Shown here in pieces: positions 1-11,433 of a DNA stretch of 11,433 bases (position 1 is the stretch's first letter; each line of letters starts with the position of its first letter). Below the pieces are notes generated by a model. The model had not been told where the DNA came from, did no database searches, and saw nothing but the letters and a program-made list of their open reading frames with translations. The stretch lies in UHGV virus genome UHGV-0104572; one strand, 5' to 3'. The position numbers and the translations under genes are program-made. This DNA is from a virus.

Positions 1-49
1 CTTCTATTGCCAAGCATATAAATTACACTAGCGCTATAAGAGTGTGTTT

Positions 50-2068
50 TTACATTACTGTAATAATAAAATCCAAATCAACATTGGCACCTGTATTATT
101 AAATGTCTTAACCGTAATTGAATAGTCTGAATCCCTTGAGAAACTTGAATATCTACCAGATCCTCCAAACAATGTAATATTTGGAACGAGTGTTGAAACG
201 TTAAATGTAAAATCTATCTTATATGTTCCTGATGACAGTCTAGATACATTTGATATGTTCTGAGCTAATGAATAAGCACCTGTAGATGAAATATTTGCTC
301 TTGCAGATACCAACCCTTGGCTATTTCTCTGAACTTTTTCCAATCCAGAATATGGTGATTTCATTGAATTTTGGTTGCCAAAGTCTGTAAAAACAAGATG
401 GCTAACACCAAAAGATGAAGGGACGACAAATTGCACTTCTTTAAATGCAGATTCAGCAGAAGCACCAGTGTTAAGAAAACCATTTCCCATCATATTCAAA
501 TAACATTGAACACCAGAACTGAGATCTGATTGATTTGACTGTACTATAACTCTAGATGCGCTAACGGAATCTAAATTATAGTTAAATATTGAATTATTTA
601 TGTTAATAATTTGATTTAAGTTTCTGTTTATGTAAAAACTCACATCAGAACCAGTATTTGATTCGAAATAGCAATTATCAATTGTTGCTGCGACACGACC
701 TGCACCACCAATCAACGCAAACTGTACGCACGAATTAAATGCAATTGGGGTCCCGTTGGAATATGATTTCCCTCCATTTGCTTCAAACGTACAAGTGTCA
801 ATTTTCCAAGCGTGTGCGTGTTGGTTTTCGATACAAAATTCAGCATTGTACTGAAAATCACAGCGTGAAAGTCTTATTGAGTTTGGTCCTGACACTTCAC
901 CAAGTCTTCCTTGTATTGCTGTTTTGTTATAAGTAAATCTACAATTGTTAAACTCAAGATATAATGAATCTTTCAGTTTACACCCAATCTCAAAGCCATC
1001 TATCAGAACATTCCTCATTGAAAGCCTGATGCATTTGTTTATATTTAATCCAAATCCTGACCAGTCAGATCTATTGGCACTTGAATCTACAGATCTGATA
1101 GTGAGGTTTTCTATGGGGAATGATGAAAATACTGAAAGAGAGCCATCAAGATAAATCCCGAAATTATTCTGCGAAGTTTCTGAAGCTAGTATATTTACTA
1201 TTGATAACTTTTCGTCAACACCTCTTATATAAGCTACTTTTCCACCTTCTCTCTGGTGTATTGGTATTGATACTGGTGATTTTAAATTTATAATATTGCC
1301 TGGTAAAACGACCCCAAGCCCAAGAACTCCGGCGGCTGAAATGGCCTTCCTTAGATTTGGTGATAAGTCCAAGTTATCATCAGGATTTCCATGCATACCA
1401 TACATTTCACCTGTGATTTCTTTGATGTCTCTTCTAACCCAACAACCGTTTGATGATGGATGTTCATCTCCAACTCCGTTTACATAGTCTGATACATATG
1501 CATCTCCAATATATGGAACTGATGGTGATATTATACACCCTCCGTCATGCTTCGACCTTATTATGCTGTCATTAAACTCAAAAATACCACCACCACCACT
1601 TCCATCTCGATACCATGACTTTAGTAAAACCTTATCTCCATTATTAGATTCCATTCCATAAAAATCAGATACAGCACCCAACTCACCAACTAAATTAAAA
1701 CCACCTTTACTAGATAATTCCTCTCTTAATTGATCAGGGTCATACTTCAGCACATTCGGAAAATAGAACTGCTTAGCACCATATGCATCATAAACAGCCA
1801 TAGAATGGCCTTGCACGGTAACGAATTTGGCAATCTGTCCGTTATATACCGGATATCCAGCAGCGTTAATGATGATTGGTTGCGAAACAGGAACGTGAGA
1901 TCCGTCTTCGTTCTCCACATAAACCTGAATCTGGTTTTCAGGATTTACCGGGTCAGTGTCAATTTTACCGATATAAATTTTGCCATTGGCTACAGCTTTA
2001 AAAGAACGAGCCATAGTGAAGAGTTGCGAAGGCATGCTCACTACAACATTAGCTGTAATGTCTGTCAT
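50..2068 (-). CDS. Tailspike protein: P22/HK620-type N-terminal head-binding domain, divergent C-terminal receptor-binding domain
   Basis: 672-aa ORF. The first ~115 aa ([11 protein letters not shown]...[11 protein letters not shown]...NVLKYDPDQ) match the conserved P22 gp9 / HK620 tailspike head-binding domain as I recall it. The rest is G/N/S-rich with NxS/T repeats, typical of a beta-helix, but does not match the P22 or HK620 receptor domains I remember. GGAG lies 8 nt upstream of the ATG at 2068. Confidence 0.85.
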
Positions 2069-2126
2069 TTAATTTGCTCCAGATACAAGGAATCGCCGCA
2101 GCATGGCTACGGTGAATTTTGGGCAT

Positions 2127-2150
2127 AAAAAAACCCAGCCGAAGCTGGGT
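2127..2150 (-). terminator. Rho-independent terminator between ant and tailspike
   Basis: Plus strand has an A-run (2127-2133) followed by cccagc-cgaa-gctggg (2134-2149). On the minus-strand RNA this is a GC-rich hairpin followed by a 7-U run, 19 nt after the ant stop. Confidence 0.6.
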
Positions 2151-2168
2151 CGTTGCGTTGGTTATCTG

Positions 2169-3092
2169 TCAGTAGTTATGTACTGAAGGAGGTAATTCTT
2201 TATTCTTAAGTCTCATCCATGCGGAAAGATTCGTTGGTCCGTCTGGCTCATTAATATCAACATCTCGTGTGTGGTTTATTAAAACGTCTCTCGCCATTCC
2301 GATAACATACGAGAACTTATGACCGTAGTCGTAGCATCTGCCGGAATAGTTCGATTGAATTTGTTTTAGCGCCGGATACAGTTCGCGGAATAATGCCTGC
2401 GAACGGTTGGCATAATCCCATAACCATACAAGGCTGTTTGCTTCTTTTGCAGAAAGCTCGTTGGTTTTCTTCTCTTGTTTGCCAATGAACTCACCTTCAA
2501 GTGGAACTCGAGCTGCAAGTGATAGTGCTTCGGTAAACTGCTCCTCACTGATTTCTTTGTACGAACATCCAAAATGGGATTTTAGTGACGACCACATGGT
2601 GATCATCGCCTTAGCCTGTTTTTCTTTTGGCAGAGACTGACCGCGACTCATGACGAGTTGTTTAATGGCTTCCTGCTGTTCAGTGGTGATTTTACCCGGC
2701 AACGCTTTTTTAGCTTTGCGTGGGTTAACTACATGGCCTTTAGTCCAGTACTCGTATAGCACATCGTCACACTCTTCTTGATACTGGATTACATTGTCGC
2801 GGATTTCAGGGCGGACTTTGTTAGGGCTGATGGTTTGCAACCAGCCATTCAGTTTACGTAAAGCAAGGCAAATCATGGTCTGCACACCGCCAACTGAAGG
2901 TATTGCGATTTCCACAATTCCTTTAGCAAATCTTTGTTTTAACTTTGTAAACTGTGAAGCCCAATCCATACCCATTCCCTCAACGATAGGTTTCATTGGG
3001 GTGTACGGCTCACCGTTGTGATTGACAACATAAAGCTCTGCGCCGTGGAATGGTACATTGATAGTAGATACTGCTGTTGCTATACTTTTCAT
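2169..3092 (-). CDS. ant: Antirepressor Ant (P22 immI-type)
   Basis: 307-aa ORF directly downstream of arc on the same strand, the same order as P22 arc-ant-gene 9. The N-terminus (SIA..A..T..VPF.G.E...) resembles what I recall of P22 Ant and AntA-type antirepressor domains. AGGAA lies 8 nt before the ATG. Confidence 0.7.
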
Positions 3093-3161
3093 GTCGTTAA
3101 TTCCTATGCGTGGTTTTACGATATCGAAGCCCTGACTGTTCCCGCAGTTGGGGCTTCAACT

Positions 3162-3323
3162 TTACGCGCCAATGCGTCCTTCCTTCTTAAAACTTTCCAT
3201 TACTCTCTGATAAATCTCAGAGTTAACAGACCGACCATTCTCTTCCGCCACCTTGCGTACCAAATCCAATACTTCTTTAGGCCACCGCAAATTGAACTGC
3301 GGCATTTTGCTCATTCCTTTCAT
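3162..3323 (-). CDS. arc: Arc repressor (ribbon-helix-helix)
   Basis: Translation from the internal Met gives MKGMSKMPQFNLRWPKEVLDLVRKVAEENGRSVNSEIYQRVMESFKKEGRIGA, 53 aa, essentially identical to P22 Arc with one K/R difference by my recall. The longer 74-aa ORF in the track is an upstream extension running through the operator region. Confidence 0.9.
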   Translation of the reverse strand: MKGMSKMPQFNLRWPKEVLDLVRKVAEENGRSVNSEIYQRVMESFKKEGRIGA

Positions 3324-3339
3324 ATTCACCTCACAATAT

Positions 3340-3356
3340 GGGTCCACGGTGGACCT
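3340..3356. promoter_or_regulatory. Omnt operator (Mnt binding site)
   Basis: Palindrome gGGTCCACGGTGGACCt, matching the 17-bp P22 mnt operator AGGTCCACGGTGGACCT except at the first base. It sits at the predicted Pant start site. Confidence 0.8.
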
Positions 3357-3390
3357 GTTGAGAATGTAGTAGAGTGCTTCTATCATGTCA
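3357..3390. promoter_or_regulatory. Divergent Pant / Pmnt promoter region
   Basis: Minus strand (Pant): -35 TTGACA (plus 3385-3390), 17-bp spacer, -10 TACATT (plus 3362-3367), start site inside Omnt. Plus strand (Pmnt candidate): -35 TTGAGA (3357-3362) and -10 TATCAT (3381-3386), 18-bp spacer. Pmnt placement is less certain. Confidence 0.65.
3366..3386. promoter_or_regulatory. Oarc operator (Arc binding site)
   Basis: Reverse complement reads ATGATAGAAGCACTCTACTAc, matching the P22 arc operator ATGATAGAAGCACTCTACTAT with one end mismatch. It lies between the -35 and -10 of Pant. Confidence 0.75.
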
Positions 3391-3413
3391 ATACACTAAC
3401 TTGGAGTGATGGC

Positions 3414-3668
3414 ATGGCTAGAGATGATCCGCACTTTAACTTCCGCATGCCTTTGGAAGTAAGAGAAAAATTAAAATACAGAGCAGAGTCAAATGGTAGA
3501 TCAATGAACTCAGAATTGTTGCAAATCGTCCAAGATGCTCTATCGAGACCATCTCCTGTAAAAGGTTATCGCAATGAAGCTGAACGATTAGCCGAGATGC
3601 AGGCTGAACAGTTCAAGTCTGTGGTATTTGAGACACTTAAAAACATGTATGGCAAGGATGCAAAATGA
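3414..3668 (+). CDS. mnt: Mnt repressor (maintenance of lysogeny; represses Pant)
   Basis: MARDDPHFNFRMPLEVREKLKYRAESNGRSMNSELLQIVQDALS..., 84 aa, closely matches P22 Mnt as recalled. GGAG lies 7 nt upstream of the ATG. The 216-aa ORF in the track is an unsupported N-terminal extension. Confidence 0.9.
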   Translation: MARDDPHFNFRMPLEVREKLKYRAESNGRSMNSELLQIVQDALSRPSPVKGYRNEAERLAEMQAEQFKSVVFETLKNMYGKDAK

Positions 3669-4246
3669 TCGATTACAACCCAGCAAAAAAAGAAATCATC
3701 GCAGCTAAAAAGTGCCTAGAGCAGATGAAATCATCTACAAACCATGATGATTTTGAAATGCACTGGCGAGAATGTCTTGGGCATATAGAAAAGTCTTTCA
3801 GTAAGTTGCTCTGTGCAACAAAGCCGGTTAGTGGAAAATTTAGCAGCCACTTCAACCAAAAGTTCATGCTTAGAAAAACAGACAAAACACTTGCTTACCT
3901 TCACCAAGCAAGAAATGCTGATCATCATTCCACTATGGAAATCTCAAAACTTGAACCTCCTTATACTACTCTTGGGGCATTTCCGGGAGCAAGAAGCCAT
4001 TATATTAAAGAGTTAATCATTGATTCAACAGGGAAAATAGCAAAATACGAAGGCGACCCTATGATAGTTGAGTTTCATCCAGCAACAACTATGCCTATAA
4101 CCGTAAGAAACCAAGGCAAAGATTATCCACCTCCAACAGAACATCTTGGCGAAAAGCTTGTTGATATACATCCATCTGTTCTTGCCTATCTCGGTATACA
4201 ATTTTATGAAAAATGGATAGATGAGTCGTGTGCAACGTTTAGATAG
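3665..4246 (+). CDS. Hypothetical protein (193 aa), translationally coupled to mnt
   Basis: The ATG overlaps the mnt stop (ATGA). It is a long clean ORF with no transmembrane segment and no motif I recognise. It occupies the mnt-to-sieA interval of a P22-like immI region. Confidence 0.6.
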   Translation: MIDYNPAKKEIIAAKKCLEQMKSSTNHDDFEMHWRECLGHIEKSFSKLLCATKPVSGKFSSHFNQKFMLRKTDKTLAYLHQARNADHHSTMEISKLEPPYTTLGAFPGARSHYIKELIIDSTGKIAKYEGDPMIVEFHPATTMPITVRNQGKDYPPPTEHLGEKLVDIHPSVLAYLGIQFYEKWIDESCATFR

Positions 4247-4463
4247 TTATTTTTGATAATTTCAAGTATTTCCTCTTGACTTTGATTTACCCAAACGTGA
4301 TCACACTCATGAAACCAGATTATGCTTCCTGTTTCGCCTTGTGCAATATAGGTGATCATGTTTTCATTAACAATTATTACTGAGTTATCATGTGCGCAAT
4401 TTAGTTTTATCAATTCGCATATCCTATCGTGACAAAGTAACTAGAAAAACTAAAGAGGTTGGT

Positions 4464-4958
4464 GTGTCTGATTCTATGAGTTACGCTGTGCTAGTTGCCG
4501 CAACTCTATTTATGGGGATAGGGTTGCAGATTGCGTGGTTCTTTTTTTCTAGTTTTATTAAACGCAAAAGAATTGAATCAAGGATATCTGAGATTTCTAT
4601 TGCTATAGGGAAAAATGCTGAAAATCCAGAGAATGAGGCCTGCGCACTGAATTACCTTAAAGAAAAGTTTTCCCCTGAAAAATTTGAAAATAGAATTACT
4701 GATGCTCTTGGATTGGTAATATCAGTAATTCATATGCCACTAAGTTTGCTGATAACAGTGTGGTACTTCGCCATGATCGCCGGAAGAATATTTGGTTTCA
4801 TGAATATAGAGCCTGTAGTTCTTTGGGTTCCAATGATACTGCAACTGTTGTTAAGCGTTGCTATCTTTATTTTTTCTGTTTTTATAAAAATTGTCTTTGG
4901 AAGATACCCCGGAGAAGCTAAGGGATTTAATAAAGAATTCATAAAAACTATAAAATAA
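4464..4958 (+). CDS. Inner-membrane protein, SieA-like superinfection exclusion candidate (by position)
   Basis: Four hydrophobic helices ([21 protein letters not shown]; [21 protein letters not shown]; two more near the C-terminus). Start is either GTG 4464 (GAGG 5 nt upstream) or ATG 4476. Synteny mnt > orf > membrane protein, convergent with the gp16-like gene, matches the P22 sieA position. I cannot recall the SieA sequence to confirm. Confidence 0.55.
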
Positions 4959-4980
4959 ATGCCGTCCTTGGCTTACAGTG

Positions 4981-6198
4981 CTACTGCCGGGTCGCTTCGT
5001 TAGCTAAGAGCGGGCGCACGGCAGTAGCAGCCTGATTTAGCGCTCTTTCATAAGCTGGCGTTCCAGCTTTAGTGTTTGCCAGACGTAAGAGCGCATTCCT
5101 TGCTGCTTTGGACTCATACAAACGCATCATTGCACCAAAACCAGCCTCAAGCCCCATTGATACTCCAAGAGTCGCAGTTGCGCCAATCGTCCTTATCCTG
5201 TTGGCTTGTGATTGCCCCGTCTGAGTTACTACATTTGCGGTGTCTGACCTTGCTGTTTGCTGTAGAACTTCATGAAGAGCATCGAGCTCTTTCATGTGCT
5301 TTCCAGAAAAAATAGTGTTGTAAATTTCACCGCCTGACTGAGATTTAAGCTTATTAACTTCAGTGATGAACTTGGCTGGAGAGTCACCGGCCTTTTCCGC
5401 TATTTTGCTGACGTAAGCTGCACGCATAGCATCTTTCCCTTTATCATCCAATGCGCTCCAGATTCGTTTCACGTCAGATGGTTTTCTGCTTAATACAACG
5501 GTATTTATAAGTTCAGGACTGGCTTCACTGCTTGCCTTGTTGAGCTTGTTAGCAATGTTTTTATTAAGCACCTTATTATAAACGTTTGCATAATCTGAAT
5601 TTGCTTTAAGGTATTTTGCTGCGTCTGATGCACCGAGGTTTTTAGCAACTGCGTTACGAAGGTCTTTTGACATTGCATTCTCTACCATATTGGTAGCTGC
5701 TTTTGCCTGGTTGGGGAAGACCATAGCATCTCCCTGAACATTAGATCTAAATGCTGTTCTGTGCTGACGCAAGAGATCAAACGTAACATCCAAATCAGTT
5801 GCAGGGTTTGCTAATTCTTCGCGTAGGTTACGCAAGGATGTAAGCAGGCTTTGATTGGCAGACGTCCCAAGCCGTTCCTGTCTTGCGATCGCTGTATTCA
5901 GAGCATTCATAGTGTTTGTGGTATCAACTGCGGCATTCCCCATTTTATTGGTGACGTCATTGATAACAGCGCCAGCGGCATCCTTCCGTCCCCTTAACGT
6001 GGTGGTCAGAGATTTCACCACATCATCCGGGTTGTACTCACCAAAACGGTCAAAATAATTACTTACCAACTTACTACGCGTTGCATATTGCTCCGCTCGC
6101 TTTGAGCCTGTCCCGAGCAAAGCCCCCTCGGCATTCGGGATGGCTGCATTTTGCGGTAAGCACGAACTCAGCCAGAACGACAAACAAAAGGCTATCAA
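4981..6198 (-). pseudogene. DNA ejection protein gp16-like, N-terminally truncated remnant
   Basis: 405-aa Ala/Asn/Lys-rich ORF on the same strand as the tailspike, immediately distal to the sieA-like gene, which is the position of gene 16 in P22. The first ~20 codons are antisense to the Q fragment, so the homologous part probably starts near 6130. Identification is by synteny and composition only. Confidence 0.4.
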
Positions 6199-6475
6199 CT
6201 ATCTGATGCAATTTGCACACAAGGTATCGGGGAAATACCGTGGTGTGGCAAAGCTCGAAGGAAATACTAAGGCAAAGGTACTGCAAGTGCTCGCAATATT
6301 CGCTTATGAGGATTATTGCCGTAGTGCCGCGACGCCGGGTGCAAGATGCAGAGATTGCCACGGTACAGGCCGTGCGGTTGATATAGCCAAAACGGAGCAG
6401 TGGGGGAGAGTTGTTGAGAAAGAGTGCGGAAGATGCAAAGGTGTCGGCTATTCAAGAATGCCAGCAATCAGCTAA
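6131..6475 (+). pseudogene. Q: Antiterminator Q (lambda-type), internal fragment
   Basis: [51 protein letters not shown]...CRDCHGTGRAVDIAKTEQWGRVVEKECGRCKGVGYSRMPA matches the central part of lambda Q as recalled. The N-terminal ~50 aa and the C-terminal part are missing, and the strand is inverted relative to what a collinear prophage would have. Confidence 0.8.
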
Positions 6476-6477
6476 CT

Positions 6478-6638
6478 TAACGACGCCCATGTTTCACTCC
6501 TACTTTGGCTAGTCTGTAAACACCAACAAGGCGCTCTGCGAACGCCCTGTTATTTGCTGCGGCTACCACTAATCCCTCAGGTGAATCAGGGTGTCGAATC
6601 TCTTCTTTTTCCTGGTATTTCTTACGACGTTTTGTCAT
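6478..6638 (-). CDS. Short ORF (53 aa) downstream of cII, probably the 5' remnant of a deleted gene
   Basis: AGGAG lies 5 nt before the ATG at 6638 (MTKRRKKYQEKEEIRHPDSPEGLVVAAANNRAFAERLVGVYRLAKVGVKHGRR). Its stop coincides with the end of Q homology, suggesting truncation at a junction. It is absent from the ORF track because it is under 60 aa. Confidence 0.3.
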
Positions 6639-6670
6639 AATTACTCCTGTAGATTGATCCAGTAATGACC

Positions 6671-6967
6671 TCAGAATTGCATATCAATTTGCTTAAAATC
6701 CTCGGTGGCGGCCGGGGATTTTTTCTTTGTGATTCCATCCAATGCATACTTAAAAGCCCTGCTAATCGGACTGATGTCTGATGCCATTCCGAAAGCACAC
6801 AAGACCGAAGCAATAAACCTCCAGTCCGTTCTGCTTATCTTCGATTCATGACAGCCAATCATCTTTGCCAGACCGCGCTGGGTAAGCGTTGACAGGTTGA
6901 TGAGTAAATCAGTTTCAGCGCGATCAATTTCTCGCTGTGTTGGCTTGCTATAACTTGCTTGTGTCAT
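6671..6967 (-). CDS. cII: CII-like transcriptional activator
   Basis: 98 aa. The helix-turn-helix segment LAKMIGCHESKISR parallels lambda CII AEAVGVDKSQISR, and the C-terminus KKKSPAATEDFKQIDMQF parallels KKRPAATERSEQIQMEF. It sits downstream of cro on the same strand. Confidence 0.8.
   Translation of the reverse strand: MTQASYSKPTQREIDRAETDLLINLSTLTQRGLAKMIGCHESKISRTDWRFIASVLCAFGMASDISPISRAFKYALDGITKKKSPAATEDFKQIDMQF
6945..6958 (+). promoter_or_regulatory. CII-binding direct repeat TTGC-N6-TTGC (PRE -35 region)
   Basis: TTGCtataacTTGC overlaps the 5' end of cII and points toward cro and cI on the plus strand, as PRE does in lambda. Confidence 0.55.
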
Positions 6968-7051
6968 TTGTTAATTTTCCAATAGTGAATAGTTAGTTGA
7001 AAGGTATGCGTGGAAACGCATATGGCCTTAGTTGGTCAGATATCTTGGGGC

Positions 7052-7097
7052 TCGCTTTGTCAGCGACGTAGGACGAATGTCCATTGTGAAAAGAGCG
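7052..7097 (-). promoter_or_regulatory. nutR: boxA-like CGCTCTTTT plus boxB hairpin with GACAA loop
   Basis: Minus strand has CGCTCTTTT (plus 7089-7097; consensus boxA is CGCTCTTTA) and UCGCU-GACAA-AGCGA (plus 7052-7066), between cro and cII. The loop is the P22-type GACAA rather than the lambda GAAAA. Confidence 0.6.
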
Positions 7098-7104
7098 GTG
7101 TTAC

Positions 7105-7305
7105 TTATGCAGTTGTTTTTTTGTTACTTGGGAAGGGCTTTATTTCTTCCGCATAAACGCTTCCATCAGCGTTTATAGTTAAAAAAATCTTTCGGCCTGC
7201 ATGAATGGCCTTGTTAATCGCGCTTTGATATACGCCGAGATCTTTAGCCGTCTTGGTTTGCCCAAAGCGTATTGCATAATCTTTCAGGGTTATGCGTTGT
7301 TCCAT
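7105..7305 (-). CDS. cro: Cro repressor
   Basis: [66 protein letters not shown], 66 aa, is lambda Cro with about two conservative substitutions. TAAGGAGG precedes the start. Confidence 0.95.
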
Positions 7306-7329
7306 ACAACCTCCTTAGTACAGGCAACC

Positions 7330-7399
7330 ATTATCACCGCTAGAGGTAAAATAGTCAACACGCACGGTGTTAGAAGTTTATCCCTTGCGGTGATAGATT
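7330..7399. promoter_or_regulatory. OR1-OR2-OR3 operators with divergent PR and PRM promoters
   Basis: OR1 7332-7348 is TACCTCTaGCGGTGATA on the minus strand, one G>A change from lambda. OR2 7356-7372 and OR3 7379-7395 match lambda exactly. PR on the minus strand: -10 GATAAT (plus 7330-7335), -35 TTGACT (plus 7353-7358). PRM on the plus strand: -10 TAGATT (7394-7399); the cI ATG is at the expected leaderless start. Confidence 0.9.
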
Positions 7400-7402
7400 T
7401 AA

Positions 7403-8119
<717 letters not shown>

Positions 8120-8150
8120 TTGTTTTATTTTTCACGTAATAGGATGATTT

Positions 8151-8492
8151 ATGACACAATTTCAACTTGCATTAATCGCTAGAGAAGTTGATGGAGAAGT
8201 CATCCATCTTCGCACCAAAGACGGATACATCAATGCCACCGCGATGTGCAAGTCTGCGGGGAAGCTACTTGCTGACTATACACGACTAAAAACAACACAA
8301 GATTTTTTTGATGAATTATCACGCGATATGGGGATTCCCATATCGGAGTTAATTCAATCATTTAAAGGCGGAAGAGCAGAGAATCAAGGGACTTGGGTTC
8401 ATCCAGACATCGCAATTAATTTAGCTCAGTGGCTATCTCCAAAATTTGCAGTGCAAGTATCGAGATGGGTGCGTGAGTGGATGTCAGGTTAA
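8151..8492 (+). CDS. KilA-N domain protein in the rexAB slot
   Basis: 113 aa; AGGA lies 6 nt before the ATG. The segment GYINATAMCKSAGK...GTWVHPDIAINLAQWLSPKFAVQVSRWV matches my recollection of the KilA-N signature (GT[WY]VHP..A...A.W.SP.F...V). It starts 31 nt after the cI stop, where lambda carries rexA. Confidence 0.65.
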   Translation: MTQFQLALIAREVDGEVIHLRTKDGYINATAMCKSAGKLLADYTRLKTTQDFFDELSRDMGIPISELIQSFKGGRAENQGTWVHPDIAINLAQWLSPKFAVQVSRWVREWMSG

Positions 8493-8531
8493 AGAGCGCC
8501 TGCCGAACTCCCTATCCACCTTAAGCGGTAT

Positions 8532-8910
8532 ATGACAAACCGAGGCAGAGTTCCTCATACGCACTTTTCTATGCTTAATGAACTGACGTTTAACTTGGTT
8601 GCGCCACTTGAACAGGCCGGATATACGCTGCCAGAAAAAATGGTCCCTGATATTTCAGAGGGTAGGGTTTTCTCGCAATGGCTCCGTGACAACCGGGGGG
8701 TTGAGCCGAAGACATTCCCAACATATAACCATGAGTACCCAGATGGCCGGACATTCCCGGTACGTCTATACCCAAACGAATATTGCAGATTTCAAACAAT
8801 ACTTCAACGAAGTGTGGCTGCCTCAGTACGCTCCTAAATATTTTGCTGAACGAGACCAAAGGGCATTGACGTTGATTGAGAAAATCATGCTACCTGACCT
8901 TGATTCCTAA
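8532..8910 (+). pseudogene. Unknown ORF with a frame break (frame 0 for 8532-~8780, frame +1 onward to 8910)
   Basis: Two overlapping ORFs (8532-8837 and 8599-8910) each look protein-like only in complementary halves: ...RTFPVRLYPNEY in one, ADFKQYFNEVWLPQYAPKYFAERDQRALTLIEKIMLPDLDS in the other. The break is near 8778-8786, not at a homopolymer. The first half is in the same frame as the KilA-N ORF, separated by a single TAA and 13 open codons. Confidence 0.5.
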
Positions 8911-8918
8911 ATGTTATT

Positions 8919-8944
8919 CCCGGCCACAGAGCCGGGTTTTCTTT
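8919..8944 (+). terminator. t_imm-like rho-independent terminator
   Basis: cccggc-cacaga-gccggg followed by TTTTCTTT, 9 nt after the stop at 8910. Sequence from here to OL matches the lambda rexB-to-OL interval as recalled. Confidence 0.7.
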
Positions 8945-9096
8945 GCCTCACGATCCCCCTCACCCAAGAACACATAACCAATTGTATCTATTTGAAAATA
9001 AATAGATACAACTCACTAAACATAGCAGTTCAGATCTCTCACCTACCAAACAATGCACCCCTGCAAAAAATAAATTCATATAAAAAACATACAGAT

Positions 9097-9167
9097 AACC
9101 ATCTGCGGTGATGAATTATCTCTAGCGGTGTTGACATAAATACCACTGGCGGTGATACTAAACACAT
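9097..9167 (+). promoter_or_regulatory. OL3-OL2-OL1 operators and PL promoter
   Basis: OL3 9097-9113, OL2 9117-9133 (tatctctAgcggtgttg, one G>A versus lambda), OL1 9141-9157 (exact). PL -35 TTGACA 9131-9136 and -10 GATACT 9154-9159, reading rightward. Confidence 0.9.
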
Positions 9168-9227
9168 CAGCAGGACGCACTACTCACCAGGGCGGTGAAT
9201 ATACAACGATTCAAATATGAATCTACG

Positions 9228-9242
9228 GCGCTGACAAAGCGC
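9228..9242 (+). promoter_or_regulatory. nutL boxB (P22-type)
   Basis: GCGCUGACAAAGCGC is a 5-bp stem with a GACAA pentaloop, identical to the P22 nutL boxB as I recall it. It lies ~65 nt downstream of the PL start. I did not find a boxA upstream. Confidence 0.7.
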
Positions 9243-9370
9243 AATAACCAAAGTGAACTTTGGGGTGAATGCAGAAGCTAACCTTCTCGGCGGAGGCGCT
9301 TTGCAATGATTACGCTACCGGAGTTAGTCGCCCGGCTGTATTCACCGCCAAAGTTCACCAGGAGGTCTAT

Positions 9371-9538
9371 ATGACACGCAGAACTCAGTTCAAAGGCAAT
9401 TCACGTTCTCGTCGTCGTGAGCGTTTAAAGGCAAAGGCATTAGCTAACGGCGTACTGGCCCGCGAAGAAGCAATAAGTTCAGAAGTATTACACCGCCCTG
9501 CGCCATCATCAATGTTGCGGCGATCGGCATCACCTTAA
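9371..9538 (+). CDS. N-like antiterminator, C-terminally truncated (55 aa)
   Basis: AGGAGG lies 6 nt before the ATG at 9371. The arginine-rich motif GNSRSRRRERLKAKA resembles the P22 gp24 motif GNAKTRRHERRRKLAIE. Full N proteins are ~100 aa; the last ~15-30 codons here are recT-derived DNA read out of frame. Confidence 0.6.
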   Translation: MTRRTQFKGNSRSRRRERLKAKALANGVLAREEAISSEVLHRPAPSSMLRRSASP

Positions 9539-10236
9539 ACCCAGCCAGCAAACTTGCTTATCTAGTTCCGCGCGACGGCATGGTTTGCCTTGATATCAGT
9601 TATATGGGATTGCTCCATATTGCAATGGAGTCTGGTGTTATCTCATGGGGTCAGGCAAAACTTGTTCATGCTAACGATACCTATGAGTCAAACGGGCTTG
9701 ATAAAGCACCAACCCATAAATACAACGCCTTCGGTGATCGTGGTGATATCGTTGGCGTTTACTGCACAGTTAAGACGCCAGCAGGTGATTATCTAACGGA
9801 AGAGATGAGTCTGGCTGAAATTGAGGCTGTAAGGAAAACAAGCAAGGCGGCATTCAGCGATAAAGGACCATGGGTAAATCACTGGAATGAGATGGCGCGA
9901 AAGACGGTCGTAAAGCGTGCAAGCAAGTATTGGCCTAAGGCATCACGTCTTGATAGTGCTATTCACGTACTAAACGAAGAAGAAGGTGTATGGACTGAAC
10001 CAGTTATGCCGTACAAATCAGAGGAAGATATCCGCGAAGATGAACGGAAACGCCAGCAGGAAATAACGGATAAAGCACAACTTCTTTGTGATGAAATGGC
10101 TCAGGCAGAAAACATGGATGATTTGAAGCGATATTTTGCAGAAGCATATCGCCTGACATCTGGAATGAAATTGCAGCATAACGTACAAGCCATTTACATA
10201 GAATGCAAAGCGAAACTGGAGGTTGCCAGTGAGTAA
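9448..10236 (+). pseudogene. recT: RecT-family recombinase, 5'-truncated remnant
   Basis: The frame is open from 9448. CAIINVAAIGITLNPASKLAYLVPRDG aligns with E. coli RecT SAIVQCSQLGLEPGSALGHAYLLPFG, and KGPWVNHWNEMARKTVVKRASKYWPKA with NGPWVTHWEEMAKKTAIRRLFKYLPVS. The N-terminal part is absent and there is no start codon or RBS for the homologous region. Confidence 0.65.
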
Positions 10237-10711
10237 ACTATATGAAATAGCCAATGAATACGCAAAATTGATGGATTCAGATTTAGAGCCAGAGATGATT
10301 GCTGACACAATAGAAGGCATGGAAGGAGAATTTACCGATAAAATAGAGCAACTTCTTTCCGTCATTAAAAATGAATCTGGTTATGCTGAACGCCTCAAGG
10401 AAGAGGCAAAGTCACTGAATGAGCGAGCCGCAGTAATTCAAAATAAGATTGACAGCATCATATCATATATAGCGTCATCGCTTGAAATGGTAGGCAAGAA
10501 AAAGATTAGAGCAGGTATTCACCAGGTAACAATCCGCAAACCGTCAGAAATTGTAGAAATAATCGACTCAAGCGCCCTTCCTCCTGAATACGTTGAGTTT
10601 GAAACAACAATTAAAGCCGACAAACTGGCAATCAAACACCAACTAAAAGCAGGAATAAATATCCCCGGCGCTCAACTCAAAGTTGGGAAACCTTCACTTC
10701 TTATCAAATAA
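10229..10711 (+). CDS. Siphovirus Gp157-like coiled-coil protein
   Basis: GGAGG lies 7 nt before GTG 10229, overlapping the recT stop. The ~160-aa protein has a charged coiled-coil N-terminal half and a C-terminal ...PPEYVEF...KAGINIPGAQL segment, resembling the Gp157 family often found next to recT/erf. Family assignment is from memory. Confidence 0.5.
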   Translation: MSKLYEIANEYAKLMDSDLEPEMIADTIEGMEGEFTDKIEQLLSVIKNESGYAERLKEEAKSLNERAAVIQNKIDSIISYIASSLEMVGKKKIRAGIHQVTIRKPSEIVEIIDSSALPPEYVEFETTIKADKLAIKHQLKAGINIPGAQLKVGKPSLLIK

Positions 10712-10774
10712 CGGTATCGCCTATGAAAAAGACTCCATGGGAGAAATGGGAAGTCGATTTCTTGCGCGAAGTAG

Positions 10775-11383
10775 CGGCGACAAGGCCATATAACAACAAA
10801 CCCTGTCGCTGCCACTCGCGCAGCAAAATCAGAGGTAAGGAGATCAAGACTTACGGCTGACGAATACCTGAAAATTTATCAAGCAGCAGAATCATCACCA
10901 TGTTGGCTCAGACTTGCAATGGAACTGGCTGTTGTTACCGGGCAGCGAGTTGGTGATTTATGCGAAATGAAGTGGTCTGATATCGTAGATGGATATCTTT
11001 ATGTCGAGCAAAGCAAAACAGGCGTAAAAATTGCCATCCCAACAACATTGCATGTTGATGCTCTCGGGATATCAATGAAGGAAACACTTGATAAATGCAA
11101 AGAGATTCTTGGCGGAGAAACCATAATTGCATCTACTCGTCGTGAACCGCTTTCATCCGGCACAGTATCAAGGTATTTTATGCGCGCACGAAAAGCATCA
11201 GGTCTTTCCTTCGAAGGGGATCCGCCTACCTTTCACGAGTTGCGCAGTTTGTCTGCAAGACTCTATGAGAAGCAGATAAGCGATAAGTTTGCTCAACATC
11301 TTCTCGGGCATAAGTCGGACACCATGGCATCACAGTATCGTGATGACAGAGGCAGGGAGTGGGACAAAATTGAAATCAAATAA
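10775..11383 (+). pseudogene. int: Integrase (lambda Int-type) remnant, C-terminal catalytic domain only
   Basis: From ~10784 the frame reads GHITTNPVAATRAAKSEVRRSRLTADEYLKIYQAAESSPCWLRLAMELAVVTGQRVGDL...HLLGHKSDTMASQYRDDRGREWDKIEIK, about 98% identical to lambda Int from residue ~168 to the end, including the catalytic Tyr in SQYRDD. An in-frame TAG at 10772 and unrelated upstream sequence replace the arm-binding and core-binding domains. Confidence 0.9.
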
Positions 11384-11410
11384 TGATTTTATTTTGACTG
11401 ATAGTGACCT
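11380..11410 (+). other. att site P' arm: Int arm-type binding sites P'3, P'2, P'1
   Basis: ATAATGATTT, ATTTTGACTG and ATAGTGACCT are reverse complements of the lambda P' arm-type sites (consensus C/AAGTCACTAT), overlapping and just after the int stop. The core would lie beyond the window end. Confidence 0.75.
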
Positions 11411-11433
11411 GTTCGTTGCAACAAATTGATAAG

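What the first reader, a model, noticed from the sequence alone, without database searches (positions are those of the whole stretch)
8151..8910. KilA-N cassette occupies the rexAB moron slot between cI and t_imm
Lambda carries the rexA/rexB exclusion genes between the cI stop and the t_imm terminator. Here the flanks are lambda-like (cI up to 8119, t_imm and OL from ~8915), but the intervening ~800 bp is replaced by a KilA-N domain ORF and a second ORF. Being on the PRM/PRE transcript, they would be expressed with the repressor in a lysogen. KilA-N N-terminal domains are a feature of BstA-type abortive infection proteins, which are encoded immediately downstream of the repressor in some P22-like prophages. 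I do not recognise the downstream part, so this is the strongest candidate in the window for an undescribed exclusion function.
Basis: partly seen in the sequence, partly recalled or inferred. Interest (0 to 1): 0.8.

Follow-up and report, generated by a model that had tools for sequence, protein, structure and literature searches.

The report
Broken BstA defence gene beside cI
The DNA between the prophage repressor gene and its terminator is one gene of the already described BstA anti-phage family, and in this window it is disabled by a premature stop codon and a 2-base deletion, so it is not a new exclusion system.

Summary
The flanks are as described. Homology to lambda stops at the cI stop codon (8119/8120) and resumes at 8919, one base past the position of the rexB end. 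So 8121-8918 replaces rexAB. ORF 8151-8492 is a genuine KilA-N domain (Pfam E=1.7e-27).

The "second ORF" is not a separate unknown gene. Phage PhiR5_2 and many E. coli prophages carry one intact 253-aa gene here at 99.4% DNA identity. The window copy differs by GAA->TAA at codon 114 (8490) and a 2-bp deletion at 8782/8784.

The intact protein is a BstA-family member:
- PHROG 6287 "BstA abortive infection", E=1.8e-82 over its full length.
- PADLOC BstA, E=2.5e-20.
- Pfam BstA_C on homologues.
- hhalign against BstA-BTP1, 97.9% probability.

BstA and its shared position with RexAB were described by Owen et al. 2021. The copy is most likely dead as a defence gene, possibly still making a 113-aa KilA-N fragment.

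Two points are unexplained. The identical dead allele sits on at least 1000 public contigs in several prophage backbones. The same stop codon also occurs on a second haplotype.

Interest is low.

The parts
7406..8119 (+). Lambda-type cI repressor (237 aa). It is the upstream gene whose PRM/PRE transcript would read into the cassette.
   Evidence: ORF list. 96.3% DNA identity to lambda cro-cI, ending at the cI stop. Annotated LexA family protein / cI in the matching records.
8121..8918 (+). The cassette that replaces lambda rexA-rexB: a 30-nt leader, the broken bstA-family gene, and 8 nt before the terminator.
   Evidence: Lambda homology breaks at 8120 and resumes at 8919. Cassette homology to alleles behind other repressors starts at about 8120-8125 and ends at about 8947.
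8141..8144 (+). AGGA Shine-Dalgarno-like motif, 6 nt upstream of the ATG at 8151.
   Evidence: Read directly from the sequence.
8151..8492 (+). N-terminal segment of the pseudogene: codons 1-113 (KilA-N domain) ending at the premature TAA. It could still be translated as a 113-aa fragment.
   Evidence: Pfam KilA-N E=1.7e-27. PHROG 6287 positions 6-121, E=4.3e-28. The identical 113-aa product is called in public assemblies.
8490..8492 (+). Lesion 1: TAA in place of GAA (E114*). It falls in the inter-domain linker.
   Evidence: Alignment to PhiR5_2 and D5. In the AF2 model, pLDDT dips at residues about 111-120.
8493..8783 (+). Codons 115-211 of the ancestral gene (linker plus the first part of BstA_C). 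They remain in the original frame but lie downstream of the stop.
   Evidence: In-frame translation is identical to the intact protein. PHROG 6287 positions 164-253, E=6.6e-30.
8782..8784 (+). Lesion 2: site of the 2-bp deletion (TC/CT missing from ...GAATATCTTGCAG...), which gives a frameshift after Y211.
   Evidence: Alignments.
8785..8910 (+). The last 41 codons (A213-S253) plus the native TAA stop. They are now out of frame with the rest and lie in the frame of ORF 8599-8910.
   Evidence: Translation comparison. PHROG 6287 positions 245-301, E=4.4e-9. This part contains the family-invariant residues F215, F219, W223, Y231 and F232.
8919..8946 (+). t_imm-type intrinsic terminator (CCCGGC-CACAGA-GCCGGG followed by TTTTCTTTGC).
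   Evidence: Terminator scan. 95-97% match to annotated 'immunity region | terminator' features of HK542 and HK544. 93% identity over 29 bp to the terminator after bstA of BTP1.

Best explanation
Window 8151-8910 is a single bstA-family gene. It belongs to the 253-aa subfamily, with an N-terminal KilA-N/APSES DNA-binding domain and a C-terminal BstA_C domain. It sits in the cI-to-t_imm accessory-gene slot of a lambda-immunity prophage, where lambda carries rexAB.

In intact relatives the gene is presumably made together with cI from PRM in the lysogen. By homology to BstA of BTP1 it would act as an abortive-infection protein that blocks replication of superinfecting phage DNA. The cognate prophage would escape through a short DNA element (aba) at the 5' end of the locus.

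In this window the gene is a pseudogene. A nonsense mutation (E114*, 8490) cuts it at the inter-domain linker. A 2-bp deletion (8782/8784) then puts the last 41 codons out of frame. At most a 113-aa KilA-N fragment is made, and the defence function is most likely lost.

Shown: gene identity, both lesions, the family assignment and the slot. Inferred: co-transcription with cI, the Abi mechanism (taken from Owen et al. 2021 for ~300-aa homologues sharing only 22-29% identity with this subfamily, in the C-terminal domain) and loss of function.
For: - One intact 762-bp ORF at 99.4% identity in phage PhiR5_2, in E. coli D5 and in about 15 further complete E. coli genomes. The window differs from D5 by 5 positions.
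- KilA-N E=1.7e-27.
- PHROG 6287 'BstA abortive infection system, replication inhibitor' E=1.8e-82 over residues 1-252.
- PADLOC BstA E=2.5e-20.
- BLASTP to BstA-BTP1 C-terminal domain: 29% identity, E=5e-15.
- hhalign of a 42-sequence profile against BstA-BTP1: probability 97.9%, E=5.9e-13, 187 columns.
- Homologues carry precomputed Pfam PF26567 (named BstA_C) together with KilA-N.
- The + frame is under purifying selection: D5 and DY612 differ at 29 nucleotides but only 1 amino acid.
- The lesions are real, not sequencing errors. The same 861 bp is 100% identical in 8 of 8 independent assemblies, 2 complete E. coli genomes and most of 8 IMG/VR contigs.
- The slot: lambda homology breaks exactly at the cI stop and the rexB end. 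The same cI protein is followed by a BstA-Ec-type gene in E. coli O178:H19.
- Literature: BstA lies downstream of cI, is highly expressed in lysogens, has two domains, and shares synteny with rexAB.
Against: - No member of this 253-aa subfamily has been shown here to confer defence. Identity to the tested BstA proteins is only 22-29% and is detected by BLASTP only in the C-terminal domain.
- The PADLOC model aligns to the C-terminal domain only.
- No BTP1-like aba signature (terminal direct repeats) is visible around the start codon.
- The dead allele is very common (at least 1000 contigs, 1970 index blocks) and occurs in complete-looking prophages. The same stop codon occurs on a second haplotype. 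Both would also fit a retained function for the KilA-N fragment.
Confidence: 0.88

Rival explanations
1. It is a functional split system. The 113-aa KilA-N protein, perhaps with a separately translated C-terminal piece, still acts. It could be a DNA-binding regulator, or a decoy or dominant-negative that neutralises cognate BstA made by rival prophages. Selection rather than hitch-hiking would then maintain the truncated allele.
For: - The identical dead allele is listed in 1970 index blocks and on at least 1000 contigs, comparable with single intact alleles at 924 and 670 contigs.
- It lies in at least three prophage or integration contexts, including complete-looking prophages.
- E114* falls exactly in the inter-domain linker.
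- E114* recurs on a second haplotype without the 2-bp deletion.
- Owen et al. report natural homologues that have only the N-terminal or only the C-terminal domain.
Against: - The C-terminal domain is broken a second time. It loses 41 residues that include 5 family-invariant positions.
- No Shine-Dalgarno motif precedes the internal ATGs at 8532 or 8571, and no + strand promoter-like site was found inside the gene.
- The allele differs from the intact one at only 5 positions, so the truncation is recent and no post-truncation selection can be measured.
- Contig counts are inflated by clonal isolates. In complete E. coli genomes only 3 of about 18 lambda-cI-linked copies are broken. In IMG/VR the ratio is 8 broken to 31 with the intact junction.
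- Many other, different truncations of the same gene exist (69-239 aa; stop at codon 177 in L040), as expected for random decay.
Confidence: 0.08
2. It is an undescribed exclusion system of two genes, a KilA-N protein plus an unknown partner.
For: The local Pfam copy gives no hit for either downstream ORF. The slot is a known hotspot for exclusion genes.
Against: - The downstream ORFs are the two frame-shifted halves of the BstA_C domain of the same gene.
- Intact relatives have one ORF.
Confidence: 0.01
3. The stop codon and frameshift are sequencing or assembly errors, or are bypassed by programmed recoding, so a full-length BstA is made.
For: There are only two lesions in an otherwise 99.4% identical gene.
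Against: - Both lesions are present and completely linked in 16 of 16 independent loci from NCBI genomes, ENA metagenome assemblies and IMG/VR.
- Neither lesion lies in a homopolymer.
- Intact alleles lack any recoding signal.
- Two separate recoding events would be needed.
Confidence: 0.02

Closest known systems
BstA of Salmonella prophage BTP1, and BstA-Ec / BstA-Kp (Owen et al. 2021, Cell Host Microbe, PMC8585504)
   Same: - Two-domain architecture: a KilA-N(-like) N-terminal domain and a BstA_C C-terminal domain.
- Position immediately downstream of the prophage cI-type repressor.
- Followed by the same t_imm-type hairpin (93% over 29 bp).
- Homology supported by PHROG 6287, PADLOC BstA and hhalign at 97.9%.
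- The same lambda-type cI protein precedes a BstA-Ec-type gene in another E. coli strain.
   Different: - Shorter: 253 aa against 298-307 aa.
- The N-terminal domain is a canonical Pfam KilA-N, whereas in BTP1 a KilA-N-like domain was found only by remote homology.
- Only 22-29% identity, detected by BLASTP in the C-terminal domain only.
- No recognisable aba-type terminal direct repeats.
- The window copy is a pseudogene.
Lambda rexA/rexB exclusion genes
   Same: Same genomic slot, between the cI stop and t_imm. Same presumed expression from PRM/PRE in the lysogen. Same general role as prophage-encoded abortive infection genes.
   Different: No sequence similarity. RexAB is two proteins, described in the literature as a sensor plus a membrane ion channel. 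BstA is one soluble DNA-associated protein.
Other phage KilA-N proteins (PHROG 129 'transcriptional regulator', P1 KilA, Bro/Ant-type antirepressors) and eukaryotic APSES domains (Mbp1, Bqt4)
   Different: Those proteins carry other C-terminal domains. The window fragment is a truncation product, not a native single-domain protein.

Membership tests
BstA abortive-infection family | N-terminal KilA-N(-like) DNA-binding domain | tested here: met
BstA abortive-infection family | C-terminal BstA_C domain homologous to that of BstA-BTP1 | tested here: met
   Tested at the sequence level. PADLOC BstA E=2.5e-20 at profile 149-271. BLASTP to BTP1 E=5e-15. hhalign 97.9%. PF26567 BstA_C precomputed on homologues and on the 55-aa remnant. 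Window pieces hit PHROG 6287 at positions 164-253 and 245-301.
BstA abortive-infection family | A single uninterrupted ORF encoding both domains | tested here: not met
   The window has TAA at codon 114 (8490-8492) and a 2-bp deletion at 8782/8784. The feature is met in relatives PhiR5_2, D5, DY612 and 29 IMG/VR contigs.
BstA abortive-infection family | Located directly downstream of the prophage repressor, presumably sharing its promoter, and followed by a Rho-independent terminator | tested here: met
   31-nt spacer after the cI stop. No terminator-like site before 8919. Hairpin plus T-run at 8919-8946. Sharing of the promoter is inferred, not measured.
BstA abortive-infection family | Cognate aba self-immunity DNA element overlapping the 5' end of the locus (in BTP1: 63 bp with terminal CCCGCC direct repeats) | tested here: inconclusive
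   No direct repeat of 6 nt or more was found in 8090-8260, only short inverted repeats such as TCAACTT/AAGTTGA at 8162-8191. aba elements are specific to each homologue and have no known consensus, so absence of the BTP1 motif proves nothing. The cassette's left boundary about 26-31 nt upstream of the ATG parallels BTP1's 29 nt.
BstA abortive-infection family | Confers population-level phage resistance by blocking phage DNA replication | not testable with these tools
   Needs plaque and replication assays with the intact and the window alleles.
Lambda RexAB | Homologues of rexA and rexB between cI and t_imm | tested here: not met
   BLASTN window against lambda 34500-38800 gives no match for lambda 35825-37226. 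Family scans of the window ORFs (Pfam; PADLOC; PHROGs) return no Rex family.

The most novel reading that the evidence does not exclude
The truncated allele is not junk but an anti-defence allele. It has shed the costly abortive-infection effector domain. It keeps the KilA-N fragment and/or the 5' aba-like DNA, which would neutralise the cognate intact BstA of rival prophages. A phage carrying this immunity module could then superinfect BstA-protected lysogens. This reading would explain three things: why the identical dead allele has spread across several prophage backbones, why it is as common as the intact alleles, and why the same linker stop codon appears on two haplotypes.
Probability: 0.06. 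Interest if true: 0.55.

Novelty: already known. Interest (0 to 1): 0.15.

Why it matters
The finding mainly serves as a correction. A candidate "new exclusion system" turns out to be a decayed copy of BstA, a family described in 2021 whose shared position with lambda rexAB was already noted by its discoverers.

Three smaller points have some value:
- The 253-aa canonical-KilA-N subfamily is widespread, with 2748 database hits at E<=0.001; the 120 best listed are 56-99% identical and come from alpha-, beta- and gammaproteobacteria. The PADLOC BstA model aligns only to its C-terminal domain, so it may be under-called by defence-finding pipelines, and it does not appear to have been tested experimentally.
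- One and the same lambda-type cI can be followed by rexAB, a BstA-Ec-type gene or this subfamily. This illustrates cassette exchange at a fixed joint.
- Frequent, independent inactivation of this gene fits the idea that abortive-infection genes are costly and often lost.

Tried and rejected
- The local Pfam and NCBIfam copies gave nothing for the C-terminal part. The BstA_C model (PF26567) is newer than the local Pfam copy and appears only as a precomputed hit.
- A search for BTP1-style aba direct repeats around the start codon found none.
- An exact-match scan of GTDB species-representative genomes for the deletion junction found nothing. The host species of the window is therefore inferred only from context: E. 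coli-type ybhC/att-lambda neighbours in L008, L010 and L013.
- The Rfam scan found no RNA family in 8100-8950.
- Minus-strand ORFs in the region (8230-8361, 8555-8692, 8590-8859) were not scanned. The synonymous-biased variation fits the + frame.
- Sequencing error and recoding were considered and rejected.
- Decay of this particular remnant prophage as the cause of the lesions was rejected. The same two lesions occur in complete-looking prophages at another integration site.

Full report
**Observation**

The window carries a lambda-like immunity region on the + strand:
- cro at 7105-7305 (-).
- cI at 7406-8119 (+).
- A hairpin plus T-run at 8919-8946.
- A PL-like promoter at 9131-9159.

BLASTN against lambda 34500-38800 shows 96.3% identity over window 7091-8120. 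That match ends exactly at the cI stop. Homology resumes at 8919-9198 (91.8%), and its first base corresponds to the base just beyond the end of rexB. So 798 bp (8121-8918) stand where lambda has the 1402 bp of rexA and rexB.

ORF 8151-8492 is a true KilA-N domain: Pfam PF04383, E=1.7e-27, 95.8 bits against a cut-off of 23.8.

**What the "second ORF" is**

ORF 8532-8837 lies in the same reading frame as 8151-8492. The two are separated only by TAA at 8490-8492. ORF 8599-8910 is in another frame.

Megablast found the same segment at 99.4% identity in Escherichia phage PhiR5_2 and in about 15 complete E. coli genomes such as strain D5. In all of them a single 762-bp gene (253 aa, "KilA-N domain-containing protein") follows cI.

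The alignment shows that the window differs from these by two lesions:
- G->T at 8490, changing GAA to TAA (E114*).
- A 2-bp deletion between 8782 and 8784, a frameshift after Y211.

Translating the window in the ancestral frame reproduces the intact protein up to Y211. The last 41 residues are read in the frame of ORF 8599-8910. The three window ORFs map colinearly on one profile, PHROG 6287, at positions 6-121, 164-253 and 245-301. The locus is therefore one gene, broken twice.

**Family assignment**

The intact protein matches BstA by several independent methods:
- PHROG 6287 "BstA abortive infection system, replication inhibitor", E=1.8e-82 over residues 1-252.
- The PADLOC BstA model, E=2.5e-20, over the C-terminal domain.
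- BLASTP to BstA of BTP1: 29% identity, E=5e-15 over residues 133-251. To a BstA-Ec-type protein: 22% identity, E=3e-5.
- hhalign of a 42-sequence profile against BstA-BTP1: probability 97.9%, E=5.9e-13, 187 aligned columns spanning part of the N-terminal domain and the whole C-terminal domain.

All 120 best database homologues carry a precomputed Pfam PF26567 hit, and all but one (a 153-aa partial protein) also carry KilA-N. The gene tables name PF26567 BstA_C. That model is absent from the local Pfam copy, which explains the empty Pfam result for the C-terminal pieces.

Variation between intact alleles is almost entirely synonymous: 29 nucleotide differences against 1 amino-acid difference between D5 and DY612. 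The + frame is thus a real gene under purifying selection.

**What is known about the family**

Owen et al. 2021 (PMC8585504) described BstA as follows:
- It is a prophage protein encoded directly downstream of the cI-type repressor and highly expressed in lysogens.
- It has two domains, a KilA-N-like N-terminal domain and a separate C-terminal domain.
- It colocalises with infecting phage DNA, blocks phage DNA replication and gives abortive infection.
- The encoding prophage escapes through aba, a 63-bp DNA element covering 29 bp upstream and the first 34 bp of bstA. aba has terminal CCCGCC direct repeats, is specific to each BstA variant, and works only at high copy number.
- The Discussion explicitly notes that BstA occupies the same cI-N slot as lambda rexAB.

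In this data set the same lambda-type cI protein (WP_001274755) is followed by different cargo in different genomes. It precedes a BstA-Ec-type gene in E. coli O178:H19 2012C-4431 and the 253-aa type in strain D5. The closely related cI of lambda itself precedes rexAB. The terminator hairpin after BTP1's bstA is 93% identical over 29 bp to window 8919-8947. This points to cassette exchange between conserved joints.

**Are the lesions real, and how common are they?**

The 861-bp segment is 100% identical, with both lesions, in:
- Two complete E. coli genomes, EC2641 and 1008S19.
- All eight places returned for the 113-aa product, from NCBI assemblies and ENA metagenome scaffolds.

All eight IMG/VR contigs carrying the deletion junction have both lesions, and the seven of them that include cI have one 99.9-100% identical to the window's.

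The 31 IMG/VR contigs with the intact junction break down as follows:
- 29 have a complete ORF.
- One has a different stop, at codon 177.
- One is cut at a contig end.

So sequencing error is excluded. In the 17 loci where both lesion sites were checked directly, the two lesions always occur together.

The dead allele did not arise through the decay of this particular remnant. It also sits in complete-looking prophages next to dsdC that have replication, lysis and packaging genes. It occurs in a third context as well, L012. A roughly 3-kb immunity module (window about 6458-9499) is at least 99.6% identical among these contexts.

The truncated product is listed in 1970 index blocks and on at least 1000 contigs. 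The two commonest intact alleles are on 924 and 670 contigs. These counts are not corrected for clonal redundancy. In complete E. coli genomes only 3 of about 18 lambda-cI-linked copies are broken.

**Unexplained details**

The same G->T change also occurs on a second haplotype, with GGC-TAA instead of GGT-TAA. That haplotype differs from D5 at 19 nucleotides, has no 2-bp deletion, and lies downstream of a different XRE/S24 repressor. It is found in E. coli H5/H6 and in a 49.8-kb IMG/VR contig. The neighbouring site 8489 is polymorphic, so one crossover cannot explain the pattern. Two mutational events are needed either way.

Other members of the 90% cluster are truncated at many different places (69-239 aa). 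These include frameshifts in the G-run at 8693-8700, and strain 81 and L027 carry additional lesions in the same run. This looks like recurrent loss of a costly gene. It also leaves a small chance that a KilA-N-only product is useful.

**Mechanism proposed**

For the intact allele, by inference from homology and position:
1. The gene is transcribed with cI from PRM/PRE through a 31-nt spacer, with AGGA 6 nt before the ATG and no terminator before 8919.
2. The protein binds replicating foreign phage DNA through the KilA-N/APSES domain.
3. The BstA_C domain blocks replication, which aborts the infection.
4. The resident prophage is spared by a cognate 5' DNA element.

No BTP1-like repeat signature is visible at 8090-8260. 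This is uninformative, because aba elements are variant-specific.

For the window allele:
- Translation stops after the KilA-N domain.
- The internal ATGs at 8532 and 8571 have no Shine-Dalgarno motif.
- The C-terminal domain lacks residues 213-253, including the invariant F215, F219, W223, Y231 and F232.

Defence function is therefore most likely lost (confidence about 0.85-0.9).

The surrounding element cannot replicate in any case. It lacks O/P, lysis and head genes, and it has truncated N, Q, recT, gp16 and int. An aba element, which works only on a high-copy replicating element, would have no role here.

**Verdict**

- The feature belongs to a known family in its known position and is a pseudogene here.
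- Interest is low at 0.15.
- The only reading with some novelty is that the truncated allele is maintained as an anti-BstA decoy. I rate this at about 6% probability.

Noticed in passing
window 1-11433 (compare L008, L010, L013, L020, L024): The whole window is a remnant of about 11.4 kb from a P22-like/lambdoid hybrid prophage. In the matching assemblies the truncated lambda-type integrase is followed by ybhC-like pectinesterase, aconitase and ybhI/H/D-like genes, which is the att-lambda site. The remnant has no O/P, lysis or head genes, while cI, cro and cII remain intact.
   Followed up: partly
window 6129-6134: Compared with otherwise 99.9% identical remnants (L008, L013, L020, L024), the window lacks about 4.6 kb at this junction. 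The missing segment holds the gp16 N-terminus, gp20, DnaB fragments and part of Q. A 6-bp overlap at the junction suggests a microhomology deletion.
   Followed up: partly
window 6140-6475 (+): A 111-aa fragment of antiterminator Q (Pfam Antiterm E=6e-28) lies on the + strand. That is inverted relative to the direction of the cro-cII-late operon, which points to a rearrangement.
   Followed up: no
window 9269-9538 and 9580-10236: A truncated N gene is fused at 9499/9501 to a truncated recT (218 aa, RecT profile positions 60-186). The N fragment is the first 55 aa of a 127-aa N of the type I recall from Stx phage 933W (from memory, not tested), with its real start at 9371. About 2 kb are deleted relative to L009.
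   Followed up: partly
window 10919-11383 (+): Only the C-terminal 154 aa of a lambda-type integrase remain (Phage_integrase E=1.4e-34).
   Followed up: no
window 3094-3161 (+): sar antisense RNA of the P22 immI region (Rfam RF00262, 81.8 bits against a gathering score of 43), between ant (2169-3092, -) and arc (3162-3386, -).
   Followed up: no
window 3665-4246 (+) and 4204-4413 (-): A 193-aa ORF and a 69-aa ORF lie between mnt and the sieA-like gene (4392-4958). The 193-aa ORF has no Pfam hit; the 69-aa ORF was not scanned. The 193-aa ORF is conserved in L008, L013 and E. coli strain 81 as a hypothetical protein. It may be another accessory gene of unknown function.
   Followed up: no
L016 5054-5815 (E. 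coli H5) and L059 4129-4890 (IMG/VR): A second haplotype of the same gene carries the same E114* stop (GGC-TAA) but no 2-bp deletion. It lies downstream of a different XRE/S24 repressor. This is either recurrence of the mutation or an unusual recombination history.
   Followed up: partly
cluster members P0122-P0135; L040; L017 (strain 81); L027: There are many different truncations of this gene across Enterobacteriaceae: products of 69, 81, 93, 101, 124, 144, 175, 176 and 239 aa, and a stop at codon 177. They include indels in the G-run at window 8693-8700. This suggests frequent independent inactivation.
   Followed up: partly
L006 2836-4541 (E. coli O178:H19 2012C-4431), L004 5307-6813 (strain D5), L019 (lambda): The same lambda-type cI protein (WP_001274755) is followed by a 301-aa BstA-Ec-type gene in one strain and by the 253-aa KilA-N/BstA_C gene in another, while lambda's own closely related cI is followed by rexAB. 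In each case the cargo ends at the same conserved t_imm hairpin.
   Followed up: yes
Homologous-protein output: The 253-aa KilA-N + BstA_C subfamily is unusually conserved. The listed homologues are 55-75% identical across Vibrio, Shewanella, Pseudomonas, Neisseria, Paraburkholderia, Rhizobium and Lysobacter, with 2748 hits at E<=0.001. The PADLOC BstA model aligns only to the C-terminal domain, so this subfamily may be under-called by defence finders.
   Followed up: partly
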